A stretch of 63,757 nt of DNA, filler included, from Conidiobolus incongruus B7586 (Eukaryota), in NCBI GenBank assembly GCA_000697335.1. It is 10 parts of 10 records of this genome, joined end to end, with 100 filler letters (N's around TTAATTAATTAA, not from the genome) between each part and the next. Parts side by side here need not be neighbours in the genome. Positions count along the whole stretch, not along the records: positions 52,285 to 58,578 come from JNEM01000313.1; 9 more parts are not named here. One strand, given 5' to 3'. Shown one piece after another: positions 4,066-61,100 of the stretch. Each line of letters begins with the position of its first letter. Within the stretch, counting starts at the first letter, position 1. The notes under the pieces are model-generated. The model saw only the letters and a list, made by a program, of their open reading frames with translations, did not search any database and was not told where the DNA came from. The position numbers and the translations under genes are program-made.

Positions 4066-4767
4066 ATGAAGGCTTTTATCTACTCTTCTTTTATTGCTTC
4101 TTTGTTTGCCGGCTTTACTCCTGGCCATCCTTACAGTGAAGACGTTTGGCCCGTTGGCACTACCCAGACAATTACATGGAAATGGATTGATAATGAAAAG
4201 GACACCGCTAGCTTCAAGGATATTAAAAAGCTTCAAATTGACTTCATGACAGGTGCTGATGAAAACAATATTTTAATTTCCCCCATTGCTACTCTCGATC
4301 CTTCTGAAACTCAACTCGATTGGAAGATTCCCGATGTTCCCAAAGATGGAAAGATTTATTTCATTCGTCTAACTGGACTTGATGAATCTGGTAAATCAGT
4401 GCAATACAACTGGTCTACCCGTTTTACCATTAAGGGATCTTCTGGTAAACCCACCACCGAGCCCACCACTATCACTAAAACCACCGGTAAGGAGAAGCCA
4501 ACCAGCACTGAAAAAGATAATGATGATGAGAAGACTACTTCGAGTAAAGAGAAACCCACTAAGACCTCCTCTGATAAAGACGAACCTACTTCTACTTCCA
4601 GTTCTGAAACTGAAACCGAAACTGCCACCTCTACTACTAAGGCTAAGACCACTACCACTTCTTCTACCAAATCTTCTTACTCTCCTCAACCCGATTCTGG
4701 AAGCAACGCTTCTTTTGCCGTCTCTGGTCTCTCTTTACTCTCCGCTGCTGTCTATGCTCTCTTGTAA
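4066..4767 (+). CDS. GPI-anchored Ser/Thr-rich cell-wall protein with N-terminal Kre9/Knh1-like Ig-like domain
   Basis: 233-aa ORF: N-terminal signal peptide; ~105-aa domain (W..GTTQTITW ... W.IP ... YFIR ... YNWSTRFTI); S/T/E/K-rich stalk; hydrophobic C-terminal GPI signal (SGSNASFAVSGLSLLSAAVYALL). TATAAAAG at ~3995. Confidence 0.85.
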   Translation: MKAFIYSSFIASLFAGFTPGHPYSEDVWPVGTTQTITWKWIDNEKDTASFKDIKKLQIDFMTGADENNILISPIATLDPSETQLDWKIPDVPKDGKIYFIRLTGLDESGKSVQYNWSTRFTIKGSSGKPTTEPTTITKTTGKEKPTSTEKDNDDEKTTSSKEKPTKTSSDKDEPTSTSSSETETETATSTTKAKTTTTSSTKSSYSPQPDSGSNASFAVSGLSLLSAAVYALL

Positions 4768-5938: not shown

Positions 5939-6337
5939 TTATTTAGGCTTATTATTTAGAATTGTAAATTTAGTGCTCCAATTATAATCAATTGCAACAT
6001 TATTCTTATCATAACTCGTAATTCTGAAAAAGTATAATTTACCATCTTGACTCACTTTAGGCACTTTAAACATTGTATTGTTGGTAGTTGGAGGTAATGC
6101 TGCAATATTGACTAATAGAATATTATCATAATCTGAGCCTGACATGAAATCCACTATAATATAAACGATCTGATCTATTTTCGGTTTGCCTTCTTGATCT
6201 TGCCAACTCCATTCCACTTTTTCCAGAGTATCAGCGTACCATACCGTTTCACTCCAAGGCGTACCAGGAACATAGGTACCATAAATTGACCTTAACAAAC
6301 AAACTATACAAATTGGGAAAATACTTAGGTTTAATAT
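5939..6337 (-). pseudogene. Paralogue of the N-terminal domain of 4066..4767, lacking stalk and GPI tail; no in-frame ATG
   Basis: Shares motifs with the neighbour: PG.PWSE.VW, DFMSGSD.DNILL..IA.L.P, KVP.V..DGKLYFFRIT, YNWSTKFTI. The upstream frame encodes a signal-like LNLSIFPICIVCLLRSIYG preceded by ATA, and a TAA occurs before any ATG. Confidence 0.65.
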
Positions 6338-6801
6338 GATATAAAAATTAATAATAAGAAAATATTATAAAATTCTTTTTTTAAAAAATTATAAATAATT
6401 TCAAATTATCAATTACTAAATAAAGTAATTCAAAATTATTTCTTCAGTGAAATTTTAATCTTAATTAATTATGGTCAAGTAGTGTAAGTTGGTATAAATA
6501 TAGAGTTTTAATCATTCTTATTTATTTAATTCTAATTTAGTAGTATTTTATATAATTTTAATTAGATGGATTTATCTTATATATTGATTTTAATAACTGT
6601 AACTATTCCTTTATTTGATTAAAAAAGATACTTAATTTACTAAAATTTATTTAGTAATAGTGAAAGTAATATGAAAAAAATAATCTTATATAATATTATA
6701 TTATGAAATAATAATAATAATAATAATATAAATTAATATACTACAATTAAATAATTTTTAAATTACAATAATTAAAAAAAAATAAACTGATTTTAATTAT
6801 A

Positions 6802-10334: not shown

Positions 10335-10862
10335 TTATAGCTTACCCTGTAATTTCTTCAATCTAGAACCTGCAATGAGGACAAAATCTTGGAGGGCTGA
10401 CTTTTTATCAGCTTCCCTATCGTTCCTCTGGATACGCTCACGAATGACGGGGATGATCTGCTCGAAGGTGCGTCCATTCACGAAGATCATGAATTTGAAG
10501 CCGAATTGCTTTTCATACTGATCATTGAGATCGTTTAAGGTCTTGCGGATTTGGATCTGTTCGGGTGTTTCTTTTTGGTTGGCGTAGCCTTGTTCTTTGT
10601 AGGAGTGTTCAGATAAGGATTCTTTGGGAGCGCCGAGACGGGGATGGGCGTTAATGATTTCGATTTGACCTTCTTCGTCAAGGCTATTGATGACTAGAGA
10701 CACTTTGGATAAGAGGTCTTCAAAGCTGGTGAAGGGCTTAAGTTTGAGGAGAGGAGTAATTAAAATGGGGCATGGTTCGAATAAGTTGGAGATAAAACTG
10801 TTGAATTGAGCTTCATCAAATTGGTTGAGTTCTTCAATGGTGGGTACTTTAGTGCTAGTCAT
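10335..10862 (-). CDS. OHCU decarboxylase (2-oxo-4-hydroxy-4-carboxy-5-ureidoimidazoline decarboxylase, urate catabolism)
   Basis: Motifs LFE, INAHPRLG, LS..S..EQ, LN..YE.QFGFKFMIFVNGR, IA.SRL; intronless, 175 aa. Confidence 0.92.
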   Translation of the reverse strand: MTSTKVPTIEELNQFDEAQFNSFISNLFEPCPILITPLLKLKPFTSFEDLLSKVSLVINSLDEEGQIEIINAHPRLGAPKESLSEHSYKEQGYANQKETPEQIQIRKTLNDLNDQYEKQFGFKFMIFVNGRTFEQIIPVIRERIQRNDREADKKSALQDFVLIAGSRLKKLQGKL

Positions 10863-11162
10863 ACTATTTTACTAAACAATTATAAAACGGTGGGAGTATA
10901 GCGCTGTATTTGACTTGATGACTAATGCTATTATTAAATGGCTGAATGGATCACTCATAATGCCACTACATCATCAATATAAAGTTATGGGATTATTCCA
11001 AATCCAAGTCACAATACCTTTTAATTAAAAAATTAATAAAAATATGATTGGTTATTGGATCATATGACTGGTTATTTCATATAAAAGTGGATGTTTGAGT
11101 CAATGGATTCATTGTCATATTATCAAATAAGCTGATTGTATCCACTACTGCTCTTAACATTC

Positions 11163-12170
11163 ATGACTGATTTAGCCAACACTAATCATTTGCAGATTAC
11201 TAAATTCAAAGCCGCTGTAGTCCAAGCGGCTCCAGTTGTATTTGACCTAGATGCAACACTCCTTAAGTTAAAAGATCTTGCTAAACAAGCAGCCTCTTCA
11301 GGTGCCAAACTAGTTGTATTCCCAGAAGCCTTCTTATCTGGATATCCTAAGGGAACAACCTTTGGAAGCTATATTGGTGGTAGATCTCTAGAAGGTCGCA
11401 AATATTTCGAAAAGTACTACCGTAGTTCCATCGACATTCCTGGACCAATCGTCGATGAGTTGAGCGACTTGGCTAAAGGATTAGATATTTTCTTAGTAGT
11501 AGGATGTATCGAGCGAGGAGGAAATACTTTATACTGCACTATCATCTTCTTTGATCCCGTCAAAGGATTTTTGGGCAAACATCGTAAACTGATGCCAACA
11601 GCTGGAGAAAAATTAGTATGGGGATTTGGTGATGGCAGTACTCTTCCAGTATTCGATACTTCTATTGGTAATTTGGGTGCCGTGATCTGCTGGGAGAACT
11701 ATATGCCTTTAGTAAGAACCCATATGTATCAACAGAATATTCAATTGTATTGCGCTCCCACAGCCGATGATCGTGAATCATGGGTCAGCTCCATGCAGCA
11801 CGTCGCCAAAGAAGGAAGATGCTATGTATTTTCAAGTTGCCAGTACCTCAGAAGGAAGGATTTCCCTGAGGATTACCCCACTTTTATGAGCCAAGAACCT
11901 AATGCTATATATCTGAAAGGAGGCAGTTGTATTGTAAATCCTATGGGAGAAATCATTGCAAGTCCTAACTTCAACTGTGAAGATATTCTATATGCAGATG
12001 TCGATATGTCTGAAATCATTCGCTATCGCTGGGAATTTGATGTAGTTGGTCACTATTCAAGACCTGATATCTTCAAATTATCATCTAACTGTGAGGATCG
12101 CTCCATCAACAAAGGAAAGACTGATGACCAACTTGAAATTGACAGTAGTATTAAGAAATCTAAATTATAG
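11163..12170 (+). CDS. Nitrilase (CN-hydrolase branch 1, NIT4-like)
   Basis: Catalytic triad contexts VFPEAF (Glu), KHRKLMPT (Lys), ICWENYMP (Cys); also WGFGDGSTLPV and FDVVGHYSRPD. First ATG at 11163 (the ORF-track start at 11136 is TTG). Confidence 0.95.
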   Translation: MTDLANTNHLQITKFKAAVVQAAPVVFDLDATLLKLKDLAKQAASSGAKLVVFPEAFLSGYPKGTTFGSYIGGRSLEGRKYFEKYYRSSIDIPGPIVDELSDLAKGLDIFLVVGCIERGGNTLYCTIIFFDPVKGFLGKHRKLMPTAGEKLVWGFGDGSTLPVFDTSIGNLGAVICWENYMPLVRTHMYQQNIQLYCAPTADDRESWVSSMQHVAKEGRCYVFSSCQYLRRKDFPEDYPTFMSQEPNAIYLKGGSCIVNPMGEIIASPNFNCEDILYADVDMSEIIRYRWEFDVVGHYSRPDIFKLSSNCEDRSINKGKTDDQLEIDSSIKKSKL

Positions 12171-51900: not shown

Positions 51901-53968
51901 TTAAAAAAACTATTAAAAAACTATTTTCCAATAATAACTAACTCTTAATATTTTTTTAAATTAATTTAATAGAATATAAACATAAAAATTGATTGCTATA
52001 ATTTAATTATTCTTTATAAACCAATTGTCTCAAATTTTTTATTTTATTATACTTTAAGTTTTAATAGCAATATAATATAAAAAATTAAGATATTTATATA
52101 ATTTATATATACTAACATACAAAAATAAGTCATAAAATTAACATTACTCATATCTTAAATAATTTTTAATTAAATAAATTTAAANNNNNNNNNNNNNNNN
52201 NNNNNNNNNNNNNNNNNNNNNNNNNNNNTTAATTAATTAANNNNNNNNNNNNNNNNNNNNNNNNNNNNNNNNNNNNNNNNNNNNTTTTTTTATATAATTT
52301 TATATTTAATAACCAAACAAAATATTAAATTAAAATAATCCCTTTTAAAAAATTTAATAAATTAATATTTTATTTATAAGAATTTATTAATTCTTATAAT
52401 AAATTATAATAGTATAAAACCTTTATTATATTTTTAAAATTTAATTCAATTAATAATAAGTTTTATATTATTTTATATTGTTTATTAAGTAATATAATTT
52501 TTAATTGGTTTTTTTGTTATAGATTAAAGATTTCTATTATTTTATTATTATATAATATTAAAAACTAAAGTTATAAAAGTTTTTATATTAAAAAAATACA
52601 AAAGCTACCAAATTTAAAATATTCAATAAATTATAACATATATAATTATATTAGTTTTAAATATTTAAAAAAATATGCTTTTAAGAAAAAAATTCCTATA
52701 AATAATTTAAATTAATATCTAAGACATTATATTTCAATCTTTAATAACAAACTGTTTTTTAAATGTTAAAAGTTTGTTAAAGATATAATAAAGAGTCATT
52801 AATAATAAAACAGAGTATTGATTTTATATTATGTATTAATTTTTATAATTTATATTTTAATAATTTTATTGAATTTTAAAATTTTACCATTAATTAATTT
52901 AAATACTAATATTTTTAAATAATTAAATCATTTGTTTAAAATTATTATTTCATTAATGATAATTACAAATCAATTATTATTCTCTTTTAATACTATTAAT
53001 AATATATTAATAAAAAGTTAGATCTATCTAAAATCTAATATATTTAAATAAATTAACAGAATCATAAATCAAATAAGAATATCCTATAATATGAAATAAA
53101 TTCTATTTCAAAAATTATAGTATCAGCTGAAATATTCAATTTCATTGATATTACCACTTTGAGTATTCCTAATTTTTATATCTGAATCATTTAATAAAAT
53201 ATATTACAGTTAACAACAATTTATTATGCTATACAATTATGATATTTCCAAAGGATATGGTATTAATCCTAATATCAATCCAGAATATAAATTAAACTTT
53301 CATATAAATTTTTGCCAGTATTAATATTAAAATTAGTTTAACATATATTGGTAAAAAAGGTAAAATTCATAATTGATATGAAATCAATTTATGTGAAAAA
53401 TTGAAAAATTATGGAGTAGACGATTATTAGAATGATCTATTTATATTGGTTTTTTTTTAAATTTGAAAAATATAATATAATATAATATATATATATATAT
53501 GAAAGAATATATTATTTTGAAAATTTCAATGGAGTTTTGAACCAAATCATACTTATATTTAATAAAATTCTATCAAAAAATAACCAATGATAAAAATATG
53601 AAAAATTTTAATTTAAACATTTAACAATGTATTAGATAGATTGATGGAAATATAAACAATTATGTAGATCAAAAAAATAATGAATCAAGGATAGCAAGCA
53701 AAAGCACACTAAACTTTAAAAATATTAGATGGAAGGATATATATGCTAAAAATAATAAAGTAAAAATTTAGTTGTAGATGAAAAAATAGGAGATCCATAT
53801 TAATTCCAAGTGTAGTAAATATAATAATAGTAATAGTTGTAGTATATCAGATGTGTAAAATACATGACAGGTGACGATAATGGTTTGGAAAATATAGGTA
53901 CCTAATAAATATCTGTTGATGGAAATGAGCTGCTGGTTGTAACACGGGAGTAATGATGAGGTGTTATA

Positions 53969-56056
53969 TTATTCTTGAGGTCGAATTAGAACTGCAAGCT
54001 CTCGAGTCGAGCATGACTTTTGGAGGAATGGATGCTAAATGAATCGGATTAGTAAAATGATTCAATAGAGTTAATGGAAACCTTACAAGTAATAGATCTT
54101 TGGAGGAAGCACGGCTTTCAATATCTACACACAAACAAACCGAAAGGAATCGCTTGAGTTCGAAGCTTAGCGAATCGGGGTCTTTGAGCGATGGTGTGCC
54201 AATGGTTGCTATCATATAAAGTGCTTTAAGAGGCTCTTCGTCCAAATAGGGTGGCTCATTTTCGACCATTTCAATCGCCATAATACCTAGTGACCAAACG
54301 TCCACCTTGGTATCATATTCCTTCTGCTTGACGATTTCTGGCGCCATCCAGTATGGAGTTCCCACCATAGTAGCTCTCTTGCGTTGGGTATCCGATATTT
54401 TGGCACAGAATCCAAAGTCAGCTAATGGAATGGTCAATAATACTGAATAGAGTAATAAAAATGAAAAAAAACTTACTAATTTTAACAGAACCATCTTCTC
54501 CCAACAAGATATTATCACTCTTAATATCTCTATGAATAATATTCTGATCATGAAGATGCTTGAGACCTTTGCAAGTTTCTAAACATATACAGGCAATTTG
54601 CTCCTCCGTGAGGGTATTATTATCGATAGCATCTGTCAAGGGGCCTCCCTTCATATATTCCATTATTACCCAAAGATCGTTTTGGACTAAGAAACCATCT
54701 AAACAATTGACAATATTGGGGTGTTGAGCTTCCTTCATCACTGAAAGTTCGTTGTAGATAAGTTGCTTTCGAGGTTGTTTGGGTAAGTCGATCTGTTTCA
54801 TCGCGACAGTTTTATTCGTAGCTAATTGGACTCCAACGAAAACGGAACCAGAAGCACTAAAGAATAATCAATCGTTAATAAAATCGAAATAACTAAGTGC
54901 TGAACAGTTACCCTTGACCAATCTTTTGCTGTTTCTGGTAAAACTTGTTAATATCACCTGGATTGACGAGCTGTCCTATTGAATAACAGTATTAACAAAC
55001 GAATATATAGAGTACAAAATAAAATAGAGAACTTACTTAATTTCTCTATGACGACAGCATCAGACATACTTTCGGAACTCGTTAACTGATTCTTAGAGCT
55101 CTTAGAACTGTTATTAGTTTTAGAATTTTTATTACTATTCAGAGCGTCAAATGCCGTTTTGGTAGAATTTTCCCGGGAAGAACTGGGTGTTTCCTAATGA
55201 TTAGATTAGAATGAAGTACAAATACCTACATTTAAAAATTAAATACAGTAGAATCGTCAAATAATATACTCAAATGGTTCGGTAGTTCGGGTAGCAGTGA
55301 CATAGGTTGCTGGGGAGGTGCTAAGGTGGACAAACCGTTGTTCGCATTCATATCTTTGGGTATTAATCCAGTCCACTTATCGTGATAATCATCTTGGTTT
55401 TGTTGACCAGTATAAAATCCTAAAGCATCGATAACAGCTTGAGGATTTGCACTATATTCCTCTTTGGTAATATTTGATCGTTGAAGTAAAGCTGCCCAAC
55501 CGGGAGGCAAACCCTAAAGTTAATATTAATAAAAGAATTGACAATTATTAAATTTAATTACAGTAAAAGCACCGCTGACAGGGTCAAAATCGACATGAAC
55601 TTCATGAACAAAATTCGTTGGCATACTTACTGTAGCGGAGGAAGAACGCTAAAATGGTAGAAATAAATATATAGAAAGTGAATAGATGGCAAATTAAATT
55701 ACCTGATAAATGGCGTCCATCCAAGAATACAACTCTTCATCACTACTACAACTGATATATATTGTAGAGTCTTTGGTACATAGTTCAAAGCTATGTTTTT
55801 TAATTTGACTTCTTGTCACCTCTTTAATTTCTTTTAAAAATATAAGTGACTTGGGTTGAAAAGTTGACTACAAGCAAATTGTTGAATAAGTGAAAAAGAA
55901 AAATGAATTTAAAGGCATAAATAAATTTACCTCATTACGATGAAACGTTAAAGTATTCTCCTTTAATAAAGCCCACCTCCTAATAAATCTCCAACCAAAG
56001 TTACTCTTTTTAACTTCTACGTAACCTTGTTTGACAAATTCTGTAGGTCCTTCCAT
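53969..56056 (-). CDS. CLA4: PAK-family kinase, Cla4-type (PH + CRIB + kinase), 9 exons
   Basis: PH domain (VKQGYVEVK...RWALL...[10 protein letters not shown]); CRIB ([29 protein letters not shown]); kinase ([48 protein letters not shown]); all introns GT-AG; stop TAA 53969-53971. Confidence 0.93.
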
Positions 56057-56958
56057 AACTTTTTATTATTTAAAGTTTAGCTGACTTTATAATGACTATT
56101 ATTGAATATAGAATGAATAATTGATTATATTCTGATTGATATTATTCTATTAATAATAAATATTAAAATAAACTTTAATAATTAACAAAGAATATTAAAA
56201 GCTAAGAATAATAATAGTAATATTTTAAATATAATGAGAGAGTATAAACTTTATAAAAAAGATTAAAAAAACTATGAAACTTTATAAAATAGTCAAGAAT
56301 AATAATGTTAAATTATTTAATAAATTTTTAAGTTTAATGGAATTTTGGATAATGCATTCAATATATTCTCGAAGTTTTTCCTAATTTGGAACCAGTCATG
56401 ATGAAAATTTATTTGAGTTTTTTAATTTATTTTTCTATTTTGGAAATTGAATATGATGTAATGTTAGGAATAGAGTCAATACATGATCATTATAGTTGGT
56501 TATCATATAGTTTGGGAACTTTTATTAGATCATAGATATATTATAAAGAACTATCCAATTTTGATCTATTTCTCTAATATTCATTTAAAACTATCTAATT
56601 TGAAATATGTTGAATATAACTGAATTTTGATATTTAGAATATATGATATATTTGCTATTGAGTTACATCAGCTTTTCGAATCCAAAATAACCTTTAATTA
56701 ATAATGGATATATTAATCAATATCGTGCTACTGGAACGGAGTTTATGGTGAATAAATTAAATTGACAGGATATCAAAATATATAATTGGAATTCATATTG
56801 ATTACTATGTTCATAAAAATTTTCATTATATTTTCCTCGATCTTAAAAACATATTTTATTACGGTTAAATAATAAATTAAAAATTAATTTTAAATTATTA
56901 TCTGAGTGATTAATTAAATTAATTGATTATATGTTAAATTTTATTCCATCATAATTAT

Positions 56959-57090
56959 CGCTTTAAATTTAACTAGTCCAAAATTAATCAAATTTGATCA
57001 TCCTTGTCCAAGACTTGCATGGTGTCCAGAGATCCCAAGGGAGTAAACCCCAATACCAATCCTGGAAGACTGGCTTGATTAATTCTCAAA
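56959..57090 (-). ncRNA. Candidate omegaRNA scaffold / transposon right end of the Fanzor element
   Basis: GC-enriched segment overlapping the ORF 3' end, with hairpins GCCAGTC-ttccag-GATTGGT, GGGG-ttta-CTCC and TGATCA-aatt-TGATTA, ending ...TTTAAAGCG before AT-rich flank; position fits TnpB/Fanzor omegaRNAs. Confidence 0.55.
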
Positions 57091-58130
57091 CAACAAAGGA
57101 GTATGATTCTAATAGCATTGATGCCTAGATCTATCTTTACATAACATTGAGGACGCTTGAAAGTATTGCTTAATCTAAGTTACATATGCAAATAACCACA
57201 ATTACCACATGTTTTTCTTGGGCGATGCTTCTTACAAATGACAACTTCGTACCAAAGATTTTCTCTTGTTTTGTTGAATAAGCTTTGTTTAAATCTGTAA
57301 TGAAACTAATTTAAAATTGCTTATATATATGTATTTACCCAGTATATTTATTAGCTTTTTTATTATTTTCTGAGTTCTAAATTCAAGAAACAAAATTACA
57401 AGGTATTATTCAATAATATACTTAAAATTTTCTTTTATACCTTTTTTGTATATTTCTAACCTTTTAATTTTTTATATACTTTTATTATATTTTATTATCT
57501 TTCTTATTTTTCAAATTTCTTTATAAGACCATCTGATTTATAATTTATTATAAATATATTAAAAATTATAAATTTTCCTAATATTTATATTTTATTTATT
57601 TAATCAAAATATTCAAAAAATACTTATTTAAAAAATCTATATTCTTTAATAAAAAGTTAAAATTCCTTTTTTAATAGTATTTTATTCAAGAGTTTAATTA
57701 TATTTTAATATCCAATAATATTAAAATACAAAAATATAATTCACCAAGTTTTGTCTTTTGAAGGTAATAACCTTAATCGAGTTTTTTAGCAATTAATTAA
57801 TTATTTAAATTAATCTCTCTTTCAAGAAAAAAAATAATATATAATATTCATTTTTTAACTTTTATAGTATATTATAATTAATAATTTTTCTCTAAGTTTG
57901 ATTTCATTTAACAAATTAATATCTTAATATATTTAATAAATAATTTTTCTATTTTATTAGCAATATTATATGGATTTTTTATTACAGATTGTTTTTTGTT
58001 ATTAAAATAATATACAAAGATTAATTATTTTTAATTTTTTTTGAAATATATTATTTCTATTAACTTTAATAAGACCTTATTTATAAGTTTATTTTGTTAT
58101 CATACAAATTTATTTAAGTTTTCTTTTGTT
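56988..58130 (-). pseudogene. Fanzor2/TnpB-like RNA-guided nuclease fossil
   Basis: Manual minus-strand translation gives, in order: TK*TYK*GL; PYNI; LQKTKLGELYFCI; ghost RuvC-I; IRKIY...YNKL*IRWS; YLVILFLEFRTQ; AILN*FHYRFKQSLFNKTRENLWYEVVICKKHRPRKTCGNCGYLH...TFKRPQC.VKIDLGINAIRIILL. This matches the recalled Fanzor2 consensus (TARWTYN, TPYDIR, RLGEFY.CIP, LDPGVRTF, ILLPEF, WSHYRF, DE..TSKTCGxCG, FxCPxC, DRDxNAARNIL). Confidence 0.85.
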
Positions 58131-61100
58131 TAAAATTTACAAAATAAATGACTTCTTTGGTTATATTTTAGTATTTTATTTTTTCTTTCATAATTAAATT
58201 TTATTTTCTTAAGAATTTTCCAAATATAATATATTATTCTTTATTAAATAATAGTTATTAAATTTCAATATAATTATTTATAAATTTTTTTCTTAAACCA
58301 AGTTTTTAATATTTTTACCAAAAGTTATATTTTATAAGAAAAATCTAAAAACTTTAAATTTATAATAGGAAAATATATTTTAATTGATATTATTCTGTAT
58401 TCTTAATAATAAGAATTTGATATAATTAGAAATAAATAAATATTTTGATATATAATATATTAAAATAATAATATAAAATAATATTAACTTTTTGTTTAAT
58501 TTTTAATAAATTTTAATAATTAAAAAATAAATCTATTTAATTAAAAATTAAAATATGATGTTTTACAAATTAATAAAANNNNNNNNNNNNNNNNNNNNNN
58601 NNNNNNNNNNNNNNNNNNNNNNTTAATTAATTAANNNNNNNNNNNNNNNNNNNNNNNNNNNNNNNNNNNNNNNNNNNNTAGAAAAAAATATTATATCTAA
58701 TATATTCTTTAGATTATAACTTATATGATTATAATTGTTTTAAGCAATTAACTAACTAGCTTACAAGAAAGAAAATTTTTATAAAAAAATTTAATTAGTT
58801 TATAAAATATAAAATTTTAGTCATTAATAAGAAGAATTATTTTTTAGGTATTAAAATTTTGCTTAAAATATTATAAAAAAATATTAAAAAAATTATTAAT
58901 TTTAAAATATATATTTATTTTTATTTTTTATATATTAATATATTAATTTTTTTTTAATTTCAAAAAATTCCCATTATTTAGATTAAAAAATATTAATTTA
59001 TTTTATAAATATTAAAATAAAATTAATAATTATAATAAAAATTTTAAATATATATATTATTATTAATGAATTTTTTTTAAACTTTCAAAAATATTTTAGA
59101 AAATATAAAATCAGAACTGATAGTAATATGGCTGACAATACCTTTGATTCTGAGTCTATAAGCTCAATATAGCTATATCACTGATAAGATTCTGGTTAAG
59201 ATTGCAATAAAAAAGATGATCGGAATAAATTAGAGGAGTAAAACTAACAAAATATACAACTAAAGGGAGGGGAAATTTTGGGATCCATAACTTCAATAAA
59301 GGGTGGTCCATTGTAATTAGAATTTAAAAATAAATCTATAAATCCCCTTTATAGAGTTATTGCACCTAAGGTTAATTTGGTTAATAATATATAAACAAAT
59401 AATCCAACTGATATTTTACTCCTATTAATTTGTGATTTCTCCTAAATAGCTGAGGATTCCACCAAAAGCTAATAATAAAAAAATTATTAATTTTATAATT
59501 TTGATATAATTTTGTTAACAAAATGATATGAGTATTAATTTTAAATTATTGATGTATTTTATAATATATGTCATAAATATCAAATAATTTCAAGATATTA
59601 ATTTAAAAAAAGTTTCAGATAATAATACCAGAATCAATTAATAAAGGTGACAAGATATATATAGTCAAATTGACAAGGTTTAGTAATTAATAATATTCAA
59701 ATATTTTATCTATTATAAAATTATTATAGAATAAAATTTTTCCATTTAATAAATTGAGAATATTTTTTATTATTACAAATATAAAATCATAAATTATAAC
59801 TTTATATAATATATATTTTAAATATTTAAGAAATTAAAATATAATTATGATTCTAATTTATATCAATCATTGTATTTTAAATATATTGAAAAAATTTAAT
59901 ATAATTAGTGTTATATATATCTAATATATTTTTGAACTTTGAATTCAATTTATATTAATAATATTGCCAATATGGAAAATTATAAATAATATTAGATTAA
60001 ATATATTTGATCAAATTCTAAAATTATTTATAATAATAAGTAATATAAATTAATTAATTATGTATAATTCAATAAATATAATAATATATAATATTTCATA
60101 ACTCAGGATAATATTTTAGTAAAATAATTTGATAGGTTATCAAAATCAATATATCAGTTTGAATTAAATATATAGTATCATTATTACTTACCAAAATTCT
60201 TGGTTTTTTAAATATATAAAAAATTATTATAAGATGTTTGATTATATATAGTATATCACTATAAAAGAAATTAATTATATAAATTTTAAAGTGAAAATCT
60301 AATATTTTTAAAATGTTTAAAATTATTAATATTGATATTAATAATATTATTTAATTTATAAAGATGTTATATATTGTATCAATATAATATGTTGTTAAAA
60401 TTTTGAAAAATAATGAACTAAATTTCCAAAAGTATGCTTTAAAATAATATTTTAGTGAAATACCTTTTTAAAAATAATGATTTATTTGTTAATAGTAAGA
60501 TGGATATTATAATGGTTATTAATAAAGACTATCACTATACCGTTTTGAACTTTTATTATTGTCAAAATTAGTTAAATATCACCTACTTTTTAACGGCGTA
60601 ATAATCAAAGTATTCGGTTTGCTCATAAGTTGAAAATAACCATATTTAAGGATAGATTTAGAAAGAATTCAGCATATGAAATAATATAACTTCAAAACCT
60701 GTAAGAATCTTTGGTGCAATGACTAATGTATTAATATACAAGTATAGTTTTTAGATATAATGTCTGATTACCTAATGATCTTAGTCAATTAATAGAACTA
60801 TTTGAATAATTAAAGTAATTGAATTGACTTTATAATATTTTAAAATATATTAAAATCTAAATATATATATTTGTTCTAATAAAAACATTTATTATTAAGA
60901 GTTCATTATTGAACTAAAGATTTTATTCTTATACTATTAAAGATAATCAATATAGAGAATTATATATCACGAAAATATATAATTTTATATAACATTTCAG
61001 TATATTTATAATATCAAATCTTATTTTAAATAATTTAATGTTATATTTATAATAGGAATTAAAACATAGCCTAAAAAATGAATTTTGATATTAATTAAAT

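What the first reader, a model, noticed from the sequence alone, without database searches (positions are those of the whole stretch)
56988..58130. Hidden, near full-length Fanzor2 (eukaryotic TnpB) RNA-guided nuclease fossil
Seen: no ORF is called here, but manual minus-strand translation recovers about eight collinear motifs over ~1.1 kb. The clearest are L-N-*-F-H-Y-R-F-K-Q (~57285-57315), K-T-C-G-N-C-G (CGNC 57198-57209), F-K-R-P-Q-C (57144-57161), D-L-G-I-N-A-I-R-I-I-L (~57100-57131) and LQKTKLGELYFCI (~57725-57765). Known: WSHYxF, T(S)KTCxxCG...CxxC and DRDxNAARNI form the C-terminal zinc-ribbon/RuvC-III block of TnpB and IS607-derived Fanzor2. Inference: this fungal lineage hosted a Fanzor2 transposon family. 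This copy is dead (stops, frameshifts, all three RuvC acidic residues altered), but sister copies could give an intact or reconstructable nuclease.
Basis: partly seen in the sequence, partly recalled or inferred. Interest (0 to 1): 0.9.

Follow-up and report, generated by a model that had tools for sequence, protein, structure and literature searches.

The report
Dead Fanzor2 transposon with guide-RNA relic
This is the broken, heavily mutated remnant of a jumping gene that once encoded an RNA-guided DNA cutter of the known Fanzor2 kind, with its predicted guide-RNA scaffold still recognisable, in a fungus likely of the Conidiobolus group, where the papers searched list no such element.

Summary
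The minus strand 57440-56988 is a decayed Fanzor2 C-terminus: 442 relatives at E≤0.001, the best 59% identical (E 8e-33). Collinear remnants reach back to about 58170. All three RuvC acidic residues and one zinc-finger cysteine are changed, with about 27 stops and 2-4 frameshifts, so the protein is dead.

It is the best window hit of a model built only from relatives (21.4 bits, E 0.017). In those relatives the pseudoknot covaries.

The closest named relatives are Glomeromycota proteins; these genera are listed as Fz2 hosts by Saito 2023. Intact relatives sit in IS607 elements with TnpA. Here no TnpA is detectable, and an assembly spacer cuts the left end at 58578. Conserved G/C is far more eroded in the 5' part (8 of 40 kept) than the 3' part (29 of 50); selection on the RNA is not shown. 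Sister copies are untested (no genome held), and intact natural relatives already exist.

Verdict: a real but ordinary fossil; a new host-lineage record of a known family.

The parts
57790..58170 (-). Eroded HTH/REC remnant of the Fanzor2 ORF (register uncertain, 0-2 frameshifts)
   Evidence: Erosion-aware profile alignment, z 2.6, 0 of 80 controls as high; a different frame path
57705..57799 (-). WED remnant (YYLQKTKLGELYFCI), followed by a frameshift near 57705
   Evidence: z 9.6, 0 of 80 controls; plain profile 24.6 bits, reached by 4 of 108 controls; matches P0011 QKTRLEEFFLC
57643..57666 (-). RuvC-I remnant; the DPG motif reads Y-stop-R (TAT TAA AGA)
   Evidence: 15 of 15 conserved A/T kept, 3 of 15 conserved G/C kept in the RuvC-I block
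57335..57640 (-). Bridge helix and start of RuvC-II remnant; frameshift near 57335
   Evidence: hmmsearch E 0.002 for 57585-57355
56988..57332 (-). Best-kept block: RuvC-II (E to K at 57230), zinc finger (3 of 4 Cys), RuvC-III (D to G at 57125), C-terminal tail and stop
   Evidence: 59% identity to P0006 including the tail up to the stop, E 8e-33
56959..57085 (-). Predicted ωRNA (reRNA) scaffold overlapping the ORF end: stem 1 57074-57055, pseudoknot hairpin 57051-57040, long stem 57014-56971, pseudoknot 3' strand 56965-56960
   Evidence: Model R1, built without the window, hits 56958-57062 at 21.4 bits, E 0.017; next hit 11.4 bits. Tail similarity to L001 z 10.4. 27 of 33 homologous pairs can still form
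56959..56965 (-). Inferred transposon right end (…AAAGCG); the bases after it would be the guide
   Evidence: Relatives end in a similar AAGC/AGGC/GAGC word; near-identical loci (L011/L063, L004/L006) diverge within 1-2 bases after it
58579..58678 (.). Assembly spacer (N44-TTAATTAATTAA-N44) that cuts the piece; the element's left end is lost or lies beyond it
   Evidence: Nine identical spacers in the window
53964..56056 (-). Neighbouring host gene on the same piece: intron-containing PAK-type kinase (PBD plus kinase domain); its likely start lies about 900 bases downstream of the right end
   Evidence: Pfam Pkinase and PBD; introns and start read by eye

Best explanation
This is a dead, heavily mutated copy of a Fanzor2 nuclease gene with its predicted guide-RNA scaffold and right end, likely the remnant of an IS607-type transposon that inserted upstream of a fungal PAK kinase gene and then decayed.

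Shown here: homology, loss of the three catalytic residues, stops and frameshifts, and the retained 3' scaffold sequence.

Inferred from relatives and the literature: when alive, a serine recombinase (TnpA) would have moved the element. The Fanzor2 protein would have bound a pseudoknotted ωRNA transcribed across the ORF end and right end, and used the flanking bases as a guide to cut empty sites, so keeping the element in place.

Inferred for the decay: after inactivation, G/C-to-A/T mutation eroded the gene-distal two thirds much more than the 3' end. This most likely reflects the host's regional AT-ward mutation pressure rather than selection on the RNA.
For: Homology: 442 hits; E 6.5e-23; collinear to about 58170.

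Fanzor2 type: 160 of 168 long relatives carry both DPG and the shifted glutamate. The fossil's top PDB hit is Mimivirus Fanzor2 9b0l, weak on its own (E 0.093). The relatives' profile hits 9b0l at E 1.9e-54 against 1.6e-14 for ISDra2 TnpB, with no Fanzor1 among 26 hits. The model of intact relative P0024 (pLDDT 81.7) matches 9b0l at E 8.5e-24 and SpuFz1 at about 1e-4.

IS607 context: TnpA-like ORFs in 13 of 82 loci, found by motifs I recalled; many loci are too short upstream.

ωRNA: the pseudoknot covaries in 16 relatives, 18 double changes against 5.9±2.3 in shuffles, 0 of 500. A pseudoknot is a TnpB/Fanzor2 feature that Fanzor1 lacks (PMC10711439 passages; PMC11832414 parts 1-2).

Eukaryotic setting: intron-containing kinase on the same piece. 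Only 2 loci among 185,579 prokaryote genomes, both on short MAG contigs.

Decay: conserved G/C kept 8 of 40 in the confident 5' blocks against 29 of 50 in the 3' blocks (p 0.0005); A/T 50 of 55 against 75 of 92 (p 0.15). GC also falls towards all nine spacers. The fossil's RNA fold is not better than shuffles (z -0.86, against -3.3 and -4.8 in intact relatives).
Against: No TnpA trace: best score 15.3 against a null mean of 15.3, so IS607 type is inferred from relatives only.

The 87-column tree is poorly resolved. The fossil groups with the Diversispora and Scutellospora remnants at support 41 only, and Nostoc and Vibrio-phage TnpBs nest inside the clade.

The upstream alignment is significant mainly under a hand-tuned erosion model. 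The 16-sequence RNA alignment was trimmed at the pseudoknot strands, so it leans towards that structure, and the model's E-value is rough.

27 of 33 pairs retained is somewhat above neutral expectation (P 0.06 to 0.21), so selection on the RNA is not excluded.

The host lineage comes from a nitrilase on a different piece of the window.
Confidence: 0.82

Rival explanations
1. The protein gene is dead but the ωRNA is alive: the 3' end is kept by selection, as a ghost-like guide for intact Fanzor2 copies elsewhere or as a co-opted element upstream of the kinase gene.
For: G/C erosion stops near the 3' end. Stem 1 (8 of 8), the hairpin (3 of 3) and the inner long stem (6 of 7) still pair. Ghost ωRNA loci are described for SpuFz1 (PMC10432273 passages).
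Against: The protected zone also covers about 250 nt of clearly dead coding sequence, not just the RNA. Only 3 of 5 pseudoknot pairs and 4 of 7 outer-stem pairs remain. The fold z-score is -0.86. Retention is within neutral expectation (P 0.06 to 0.21). The putative guide has no other perfect match in the window.
Confidence: 0.08
2. The dead Fanzor2 was cargo of a eukaryotic cut-and-paste element (Fanzor2*) or of an integrated giant-virus fragment, not of a TnpA-bearing IS607 element.
For: No TnpA remnant detected. Fanzor2* elements exist (PMC10711439). Two giant-virus MAG loci carry relatives.
Against: The closest relatives with enough upstream DNA carry TnpA. The 3' end matches theirs. The giant-virus relative L081 is only 34% identical, against 53-62% for the nearest ones. 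The TnpA zone is the most eroded part and is cut by the spacer, so absence there means little. No viral gene was seen among the 11 window proteins scanned.
Confidence: 0.07
3. Only the 3' 450 nt is a real Fanzor2 fragment; the upstream motifs are chance matches in AT-rich DNA, or a younger 3' piece overlies older sequence.
For: A plain profile gives only a local 24.6-bit upstream hit, reached by 4 of 108 controls. GC steps from about 12% to 32-45%.
Against: The WED motif lies at the expected distance and strand (z 9.6). Conserved A/T sites are kept equally well in both parts (50 of 55 against 75 of 92), which argues for one age.
Confidence: 0.03

Closest known systems
Fanzor2 (Fz2) of Glomeromycota: Diversispora and Scutellospora rows in Saito et al. 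2023 Supplementary Table 1 (PMC10432273; rows seen); database proteins RHZ56817.1, RHZ56880.1, CAG8449213.1
   Same: 53-59% identity in the RuvC-II/zinc-finger/RuvC-III block; shared KTREYPWC and WED motifs; these named proteins are also fragments
   Different: The host is likely Entomophthoromycotina; far stronger GC-to-AT erosion; no ORF. RHZ56817 itself is not in that table.
ApmFz2 / Mimivirus L79 (PDB 9B0L; PMC11832414, parts 1-2 of 5 read)
   Same: Top PDB match of the fossil, of the relatives' profile and of a relative's model; shifted RuvC-II glutamate position; pseudoknotted ωRNA
   Different: Distant sequence (21% identity in the structural alignment with P0024). The scaffold here is about 127 nt against 205 nt. 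The fossil has no catalytic residue and no detectable N-terminal domain.
IS607 pro-Fanzor TnpBs of cyanobacteria and phages (PMC10711439 passages; Nostoc plasmid and Vibrio phage hits)
   Same: Same protein clade in the short tree; the shifted glutamate is visible in both aligned rows
   Different: Only 28-31% identical to the fossil's C-terminal block; the fossil lies beside an intron-containing fungal gene
Ghost ωRNA loci of SpuFz1 (PMC10432273 passages)
   Same: Guide-RNA scaffold present without a working nuclease gene
   Different: Ghost loci are conserved, multi-copy, bounded by inverted repeats and lack the ORF. This is one decayed copy that keeps ORF debris, and its RNA shows no proven conservation or expression.

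Membership tests
Fanzor2 | TnpB-like RuvC plus C4 zinc-finger C-terminus | tested here: met
   3 of 4 Cys remain
Fanzor2 | DPG motif in RuvC-I | tested here: inconclusive
   The fossil reads Y-stop-R at the aligned place; 165 of 168 long relatives have DPG. Consistent with decay by G/C-to-A/T changes, but not present.
Fanzor2 | RuvC-II glutamate shifted to six residues before the zinc finger | tested here: inconclusive
   The position is present without gaps but reads K (AAG at 57230); 163 of 168 relatives have E there
Fanzor2 | N-terminal HTH and compact TnpB-like architecture, closer to ApmFz2 than to Fanzor1 | tested here: met
   Met in relatives (Pfam HTH_OrfB_IS605; 9b0l far ahead of SpuFz1). 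The HTH/REC remnant in the fossil is weak (z 2.6).
Fanzor2 | Pseudoknotted ωRNA at the right end | tested here: met
   Covariation in relatives; model hit in the window; only 3 of 5 pseudoknot pairs can still form in the fossil
Fanzor2 | Eukaryotic or eukaryote-virus host | tested here: met
   Intron-containing kinase on the same piece; the clade is nearly absent from prokaryote genomes
Fanzor2 | Placement in the Fanzor2 clade by phylogeny | tested here: inconclusive
   Inside the clade against three canonical TnpBs (support 84), but the tree does not separate Fanzor2 from pro-Fanzor and held no Fanzor1 row
Fanzor2 | RNA-guided DNA cleavage | not testable with these tools
   All three catalytic residues are changed and the frame is broken, so this copy cannot make the enzyme
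IS607-type element | Serine-recombinase TnpA upstream | tested here: inconclusive
   No signal, but the zone is 5-12% GC and cut at 58578; present in 13 of 82 related loci
IS607-type element | No terminal inverted repeats or target-site duplication; defined left end | not testable with these tools
   The left end is beyond the assembly spacer; only low-complexity AT repeats were found
Fanzor1 | Enlarged REC/WED domains and ωRNA without a pseudoknot | tested here: not met
   No Fanzor1 among 26 profile hits; SpuFz1 ranks 43-48 in the fold search; the pseudoknot covaries in relatives

The most novel reading that the evidence does not exclude
The first Fanzor2 record in Entomophthoromycotina is a locus where the nuclease gene died but the pseudoknotted guide-RNA scaffold was selectively spared from the host's GC-to-AT erosion and is still transcribed upstream of a PAK kinase gene. 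It would serve as a guide in trans for intact copies or as a domesticated RNA, in a family passed horizontally between soil fungi.
Probability: 0.08. Interest if true: 0.7.

Novelty: new member of a known kind. Interest (0 to 1): 0.3.

Why it matters
It likely extends the host range of Fanzor2 to the Conidiobolus group of fungi. No paper held both Fanzor and Conidiobolus, or Fanzor and Entomophthor-. The searchable supplements of two surveys list no Conidiobolus, Entomophthora or Basidiobolus, and the Saito table lists no Neoconidiobolus or Massospora either. It shows that such fossils escape ORF-based surveys and can be found through their 3' end. It also yields a covariation-supported ωRNA structure for this subfamily, usable with the intact natural relatives. 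The one-sided GC erosion is a small dated record of how this fungus mutates foreign DNA, which bears on the open question of RIP-like processes outside Dikarya (PMC11105155 passages). As a source of a new nuclease the fossil itself adds nothing.

Tried and rejected
- Word-index protein search with the X-read fragment: 0 hits among 102 candidates; weak evidence, as the tool states.
- Rfam over 55500-60000: 0 matches at E≤1.
- Folding 56900-57140 as RNA: z -0.07.
- Repeat search: only AT-rich low-complexity pairs.
- Low-stringency BLASTN hits to L039 were rejected as AT-composition artefacts.
- The first null for the upstream alignment was rejected because GC-rich genes inflated it; it was replaced.
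- TnpA remnant search: null. An alignment at the expected place (58328-58152) scored at the null mean; a 24.9-bit hit at 59084-58866 is below the null maximum of 27.8 and lies beyond the spacer.
- The first stem count for the window used wrong offsets; it was corrected.
- Guide-target search in the window: itself plus two 3-mismatch AT-rich sites, not taken as targets.
- The bacterial promoter scan is uninformative for a fungus.
- Sequencing runs: four DNA runs of one study hold 84-93% of the words, likely the source sample, so not independent support; no RNA holder listed. No reads were laid, so other copies and variants in the host remain open.
- No host genome is held. The ESM Atlas gave no result.
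- Earlier findings: none for this genome, for P0006, or for the six-word query.
- A de-mutated consensus was not built: there is a single copy, and intact natural relatives exist.
- Rejected readings: unrelated zinc-finger protein (weak PDB hits at E>1), Fanzor1, bacterial contaminant.

Full report
Observation. The stretch 57440-56988, read with X at stops, hits Pfam PF07282 only weakly (E 0.012) and the Mimivirus Fanzor2 structure 9b0l at E 0.093. Against 1.84 billion protein representatives it finds 442 proteins at E≤0.001. The best, P0006 from a 1.2-kb metagenome contig, is 59% identical over 111 residues and shares the C-terminal tail up to the stop. A profile of 168 long relatives scores 57320-57069 at E 6.5e-23 and 57585-57355 at E 0.002.

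Extent. A frameshift-tolerant alignment covers 57423-57032 unaided (4 stops, 1 frameshift near 57335). With a mild per-column bonus it runs from 58189 with 27 stops and 2 frameshifts. The upstream part alone scores 24.6 bits, which 4 of 108 controls reach. A codon model that allows for G/C-to-A/T erosion, with rates set by hand, gives z 8.1 for profile columns 125-393 (0 of 68 AT-rich controls), z 9.6 for the WED motif, z 2.5-2.6 for the other two blocks, and nothing for the N-terminal domain. I therefore place the recognisable gene at about 58170-56988. The three RuvC acidic positions read Y, K and G, and one zinc-finger Cys reads R. The protein is dead.

Family. Of 168 relatives of 380 aa or more, 165 have DPG, 163 the shifted glutamate and 160 both. 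This is the Fanzor/pro-Fanzor signature (Yoon et al.: part 1 and passages of 10.1101/2023.08.09.552727; passages of PMC10711439). A 60-sequence profile matches 9b0l at E 1.9e-54 and ISDra2 TnpB at 1.6e-14, with no Fanzor1 among 26 hits. The AlphaFold model of intact relative P0024 (pLDDT 81.7) matches 9b0l best (E 8.5e-24) and SpuFz1 at about 1e-4. Of 30 hits looked up, 4 carry an organism name: Diversispora epigaea (2), Scutellospora calospora and the amoebozoan Phalansterium. Diversispora and Scutellospora proteins are labelled FZ2 in Saito et al.'s table (2 of 7 and 4 of 4 rows seen). The clade is common in metagenomes (81 of 88 pattern matches confirmed, 80 kept), rare in viral contigs (2 of 84) and nearly absent from prokaryote genomes (2 of 5, both short MAG contigs). 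Plasmid and phage TnpBs reach at most 30% identity to P0024. The tree on 87 columns and 63 rows is unresolved: fossil with the Glomeromycota fragments at support 41, and two prokaryotic or phage TnpBs nested inside. It neither proves a donor nor separates Fanzor2 from pro-Fanzor.

The RNA. The window's tail resembles the tails of intact relatives beyond their stops (L001 z 10.4, alignments). In 19 of 66 loci with a RuvC-III motif a pattern found a G-rich hairpin whose loop is complementary to a word about 60-160 nt downstream. I aligned 15 of these, dropping four near-duplicates (L006, L014, L015, L047), plus L011 picked by eye. In that alignment 4 of 6 loop-to-end pairs show changes on both sides; there are 18 such cells against 5.9±2.3 in shuffles (0 of 500), while the count of pairs with such changes is less striking (44 of 500). 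The rows were cut at the partner strand, so the alignment leans towards this structure. A pseudoknot of this kind is described for TnpB and Fanzor2 RNAs and absent from Fanzor1. A model built without the window hits 56958-57062 best (21.4 bits, E 0.017, next 11.4) and gives 10 hits in 9 of 50 other loci. Near-identical loci diverge just after the partner strand, so the right end is inferred at about 56959. In the fossil 27 of 33 homologous pairs can form, but only 3 of 5 in the pseudoknot. Simulated neutral decay reaches this in 6-21% of runs, and the fold is no better than shuffles. Rfam has no match.

Element and setting. TnpA-like ORFs lie upstream in 13 of 82 related loci (recalled motifs), which points to IS607-type elements. 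No TnpA trace survives here. The window is ten pieces of 5-8 kb joined by identical N-padded spacers. The fossil's piece is 52285-58578, so the left end is missing. The same piece carries an intron-containing PAK-type kinase on the same strand. A nitrilase on another piece has Conidiobolus coronatus and Neoconidiobolus thromboides (66% each) as its nearest named relatives. The host is therefore likely an Entomophthoromycotina fungus, assuming that all pieces come from one organism.

Decay. Against 20 codon-aligned intact relatives, conserved G/C sites are kept at 8 of 40 in the confident 5' blocks and 29 of 50 in the 3' blocks (p 0.0005; 12 of 71 with all 5' blocks, p 4e-6). Conserved A/T sites are kept at 50 of 55 and 75 of 92 (p 0.15). 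In the confident 5' blocks 23 of the 32 G/C losses are transitions. Both parts thus look equally old, and the 5' part was hit by directional G/C loss. GC falls towards all nine spacers (mean 0.10 in the last 250 nt against about 0.2 at 1 kb), so the simplest reading is that the element's 5' part lies in an AT-eroded block where the assembly broke. RIP-like signals have been reported with caveats in entomophthoralean fungi (passages of PMC11105155). Whether that process acted here is untested.

Mechanism. Shown: homology, death of the ORF, and the retained scaffold sequence. Inferred from relatives and papers: TnpA-driven insertion, and an ωRNA read across the right end that takes flanking bases as a guide so that Fanzor2 cuts empty sites. 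The purpose of that cutting (element retention) is recalled from the TnpB literature; PMC10432273 discusses it as a possibility. Inferred: neutral, regionally biased decay. Rivals are a living ghost ωRNA (0.08), a non-IS607 carrier (0.07) and a 3'-only fragment (0.03).

Novelty. Fanzor2 in fungi is known (passages of PMC10432273; Table 1 passage of PMC3627910). No held paper pairs Fanzor with Conidiobolus, Entomophthor- or Glomeromycot-; the 20 listed of 371 papers had no Fanzor mention. The Saito supplements (9 files searched, one scanned PDF unreadable) and the two Jiang supplements list no Conidiobolus, Entomophthora or Basidiobolus; the Saito table also lists no Neoconidiobolus or Massospora, and its only zoopagomycete rows I saw were two Coemansia FZ1 entries. 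The Yoon supplements were not searched and subscription papers are outside the library, so 'first in this lineage' is provisional. For PMC10530073 and PMC12247965 I saw passages only. Verdict: a new member of a known kind, interest 0.3.

Noticed in passing
window 7753, 13595, 19745, 25941, 31293, 37937, 44892, 52185, 58579 (each 100 nt): Nine identical N44-TTAATTAATTAA-N44 spacers: the window is ten joined pieces of 5-8 kb, so gene neighbourhoods across spacers may not be real. GC drops to about 10% at every piece end.
   Followed up: yes
window 11163-12167 (+), with OHCU decarboxylase at 10338-10868 (-): Intronless nitrilase. After Conidiobolus and Neoconidiobolus (66%), the other organism-named hits are bacterial at 57-60%, a possible old transfer from bacteria. 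It is divergently paired with an OHCU decarboxylase.
   Followed up: partly
window 4066-4764 (+) and 5942-6364 (-): Two convergent Kre9/KNH-like Ig-domain genes, one with a Ser/Thr-rich tail.
   Followed up: no
window 53964-56056 (-): Intron-containing PAK-type kinase (PBD plus kinase) directly downstream of the fossil's right end.
   Followed up: partly
L083 (2,340-nt contig of a Rummeliibacillus MAG), 968-1054: Its ωRNA tail scores exactly as L014 and L015 do (58.7 bits each); likely a mis-binned eukaryotic contig rather than a bacterial Fanzor2.
   Followed up: no
L001:254-1908; also L003, L005, L008, L011, L022: In relatives the end of TnpA lies about 120-160 nt before the nuclease HTH, so the nuclease's N-terminal domain overlaps TnpA in another frame. 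L001 is itself frameshifted, with TnpA and nuclease pieces fused.
   Followed up: partly
L063:3782-3895 (-) and 4604-4717 (+): Two ωRNA-model hits on opposite strands in one locus, one of them weak (E 0.022).
   Followed up: no
L018, L025, L026, L028-L032, L034-L038 and similar loci: A multi-copy subfamily, often frameshifted, whose 3' tail does not hit the ωRNA model; it may carry a second scaffold type.
   Followed up: no
L086:743-2224 (Vibrio phage 184E37.1); L085:1237-2412 (Nostoc plasmid): TnpBs annotated as transposase that show the shifted RuvC-II glutamate in the alignment; about 22 Vibrio phage records match.
   Followed up: no
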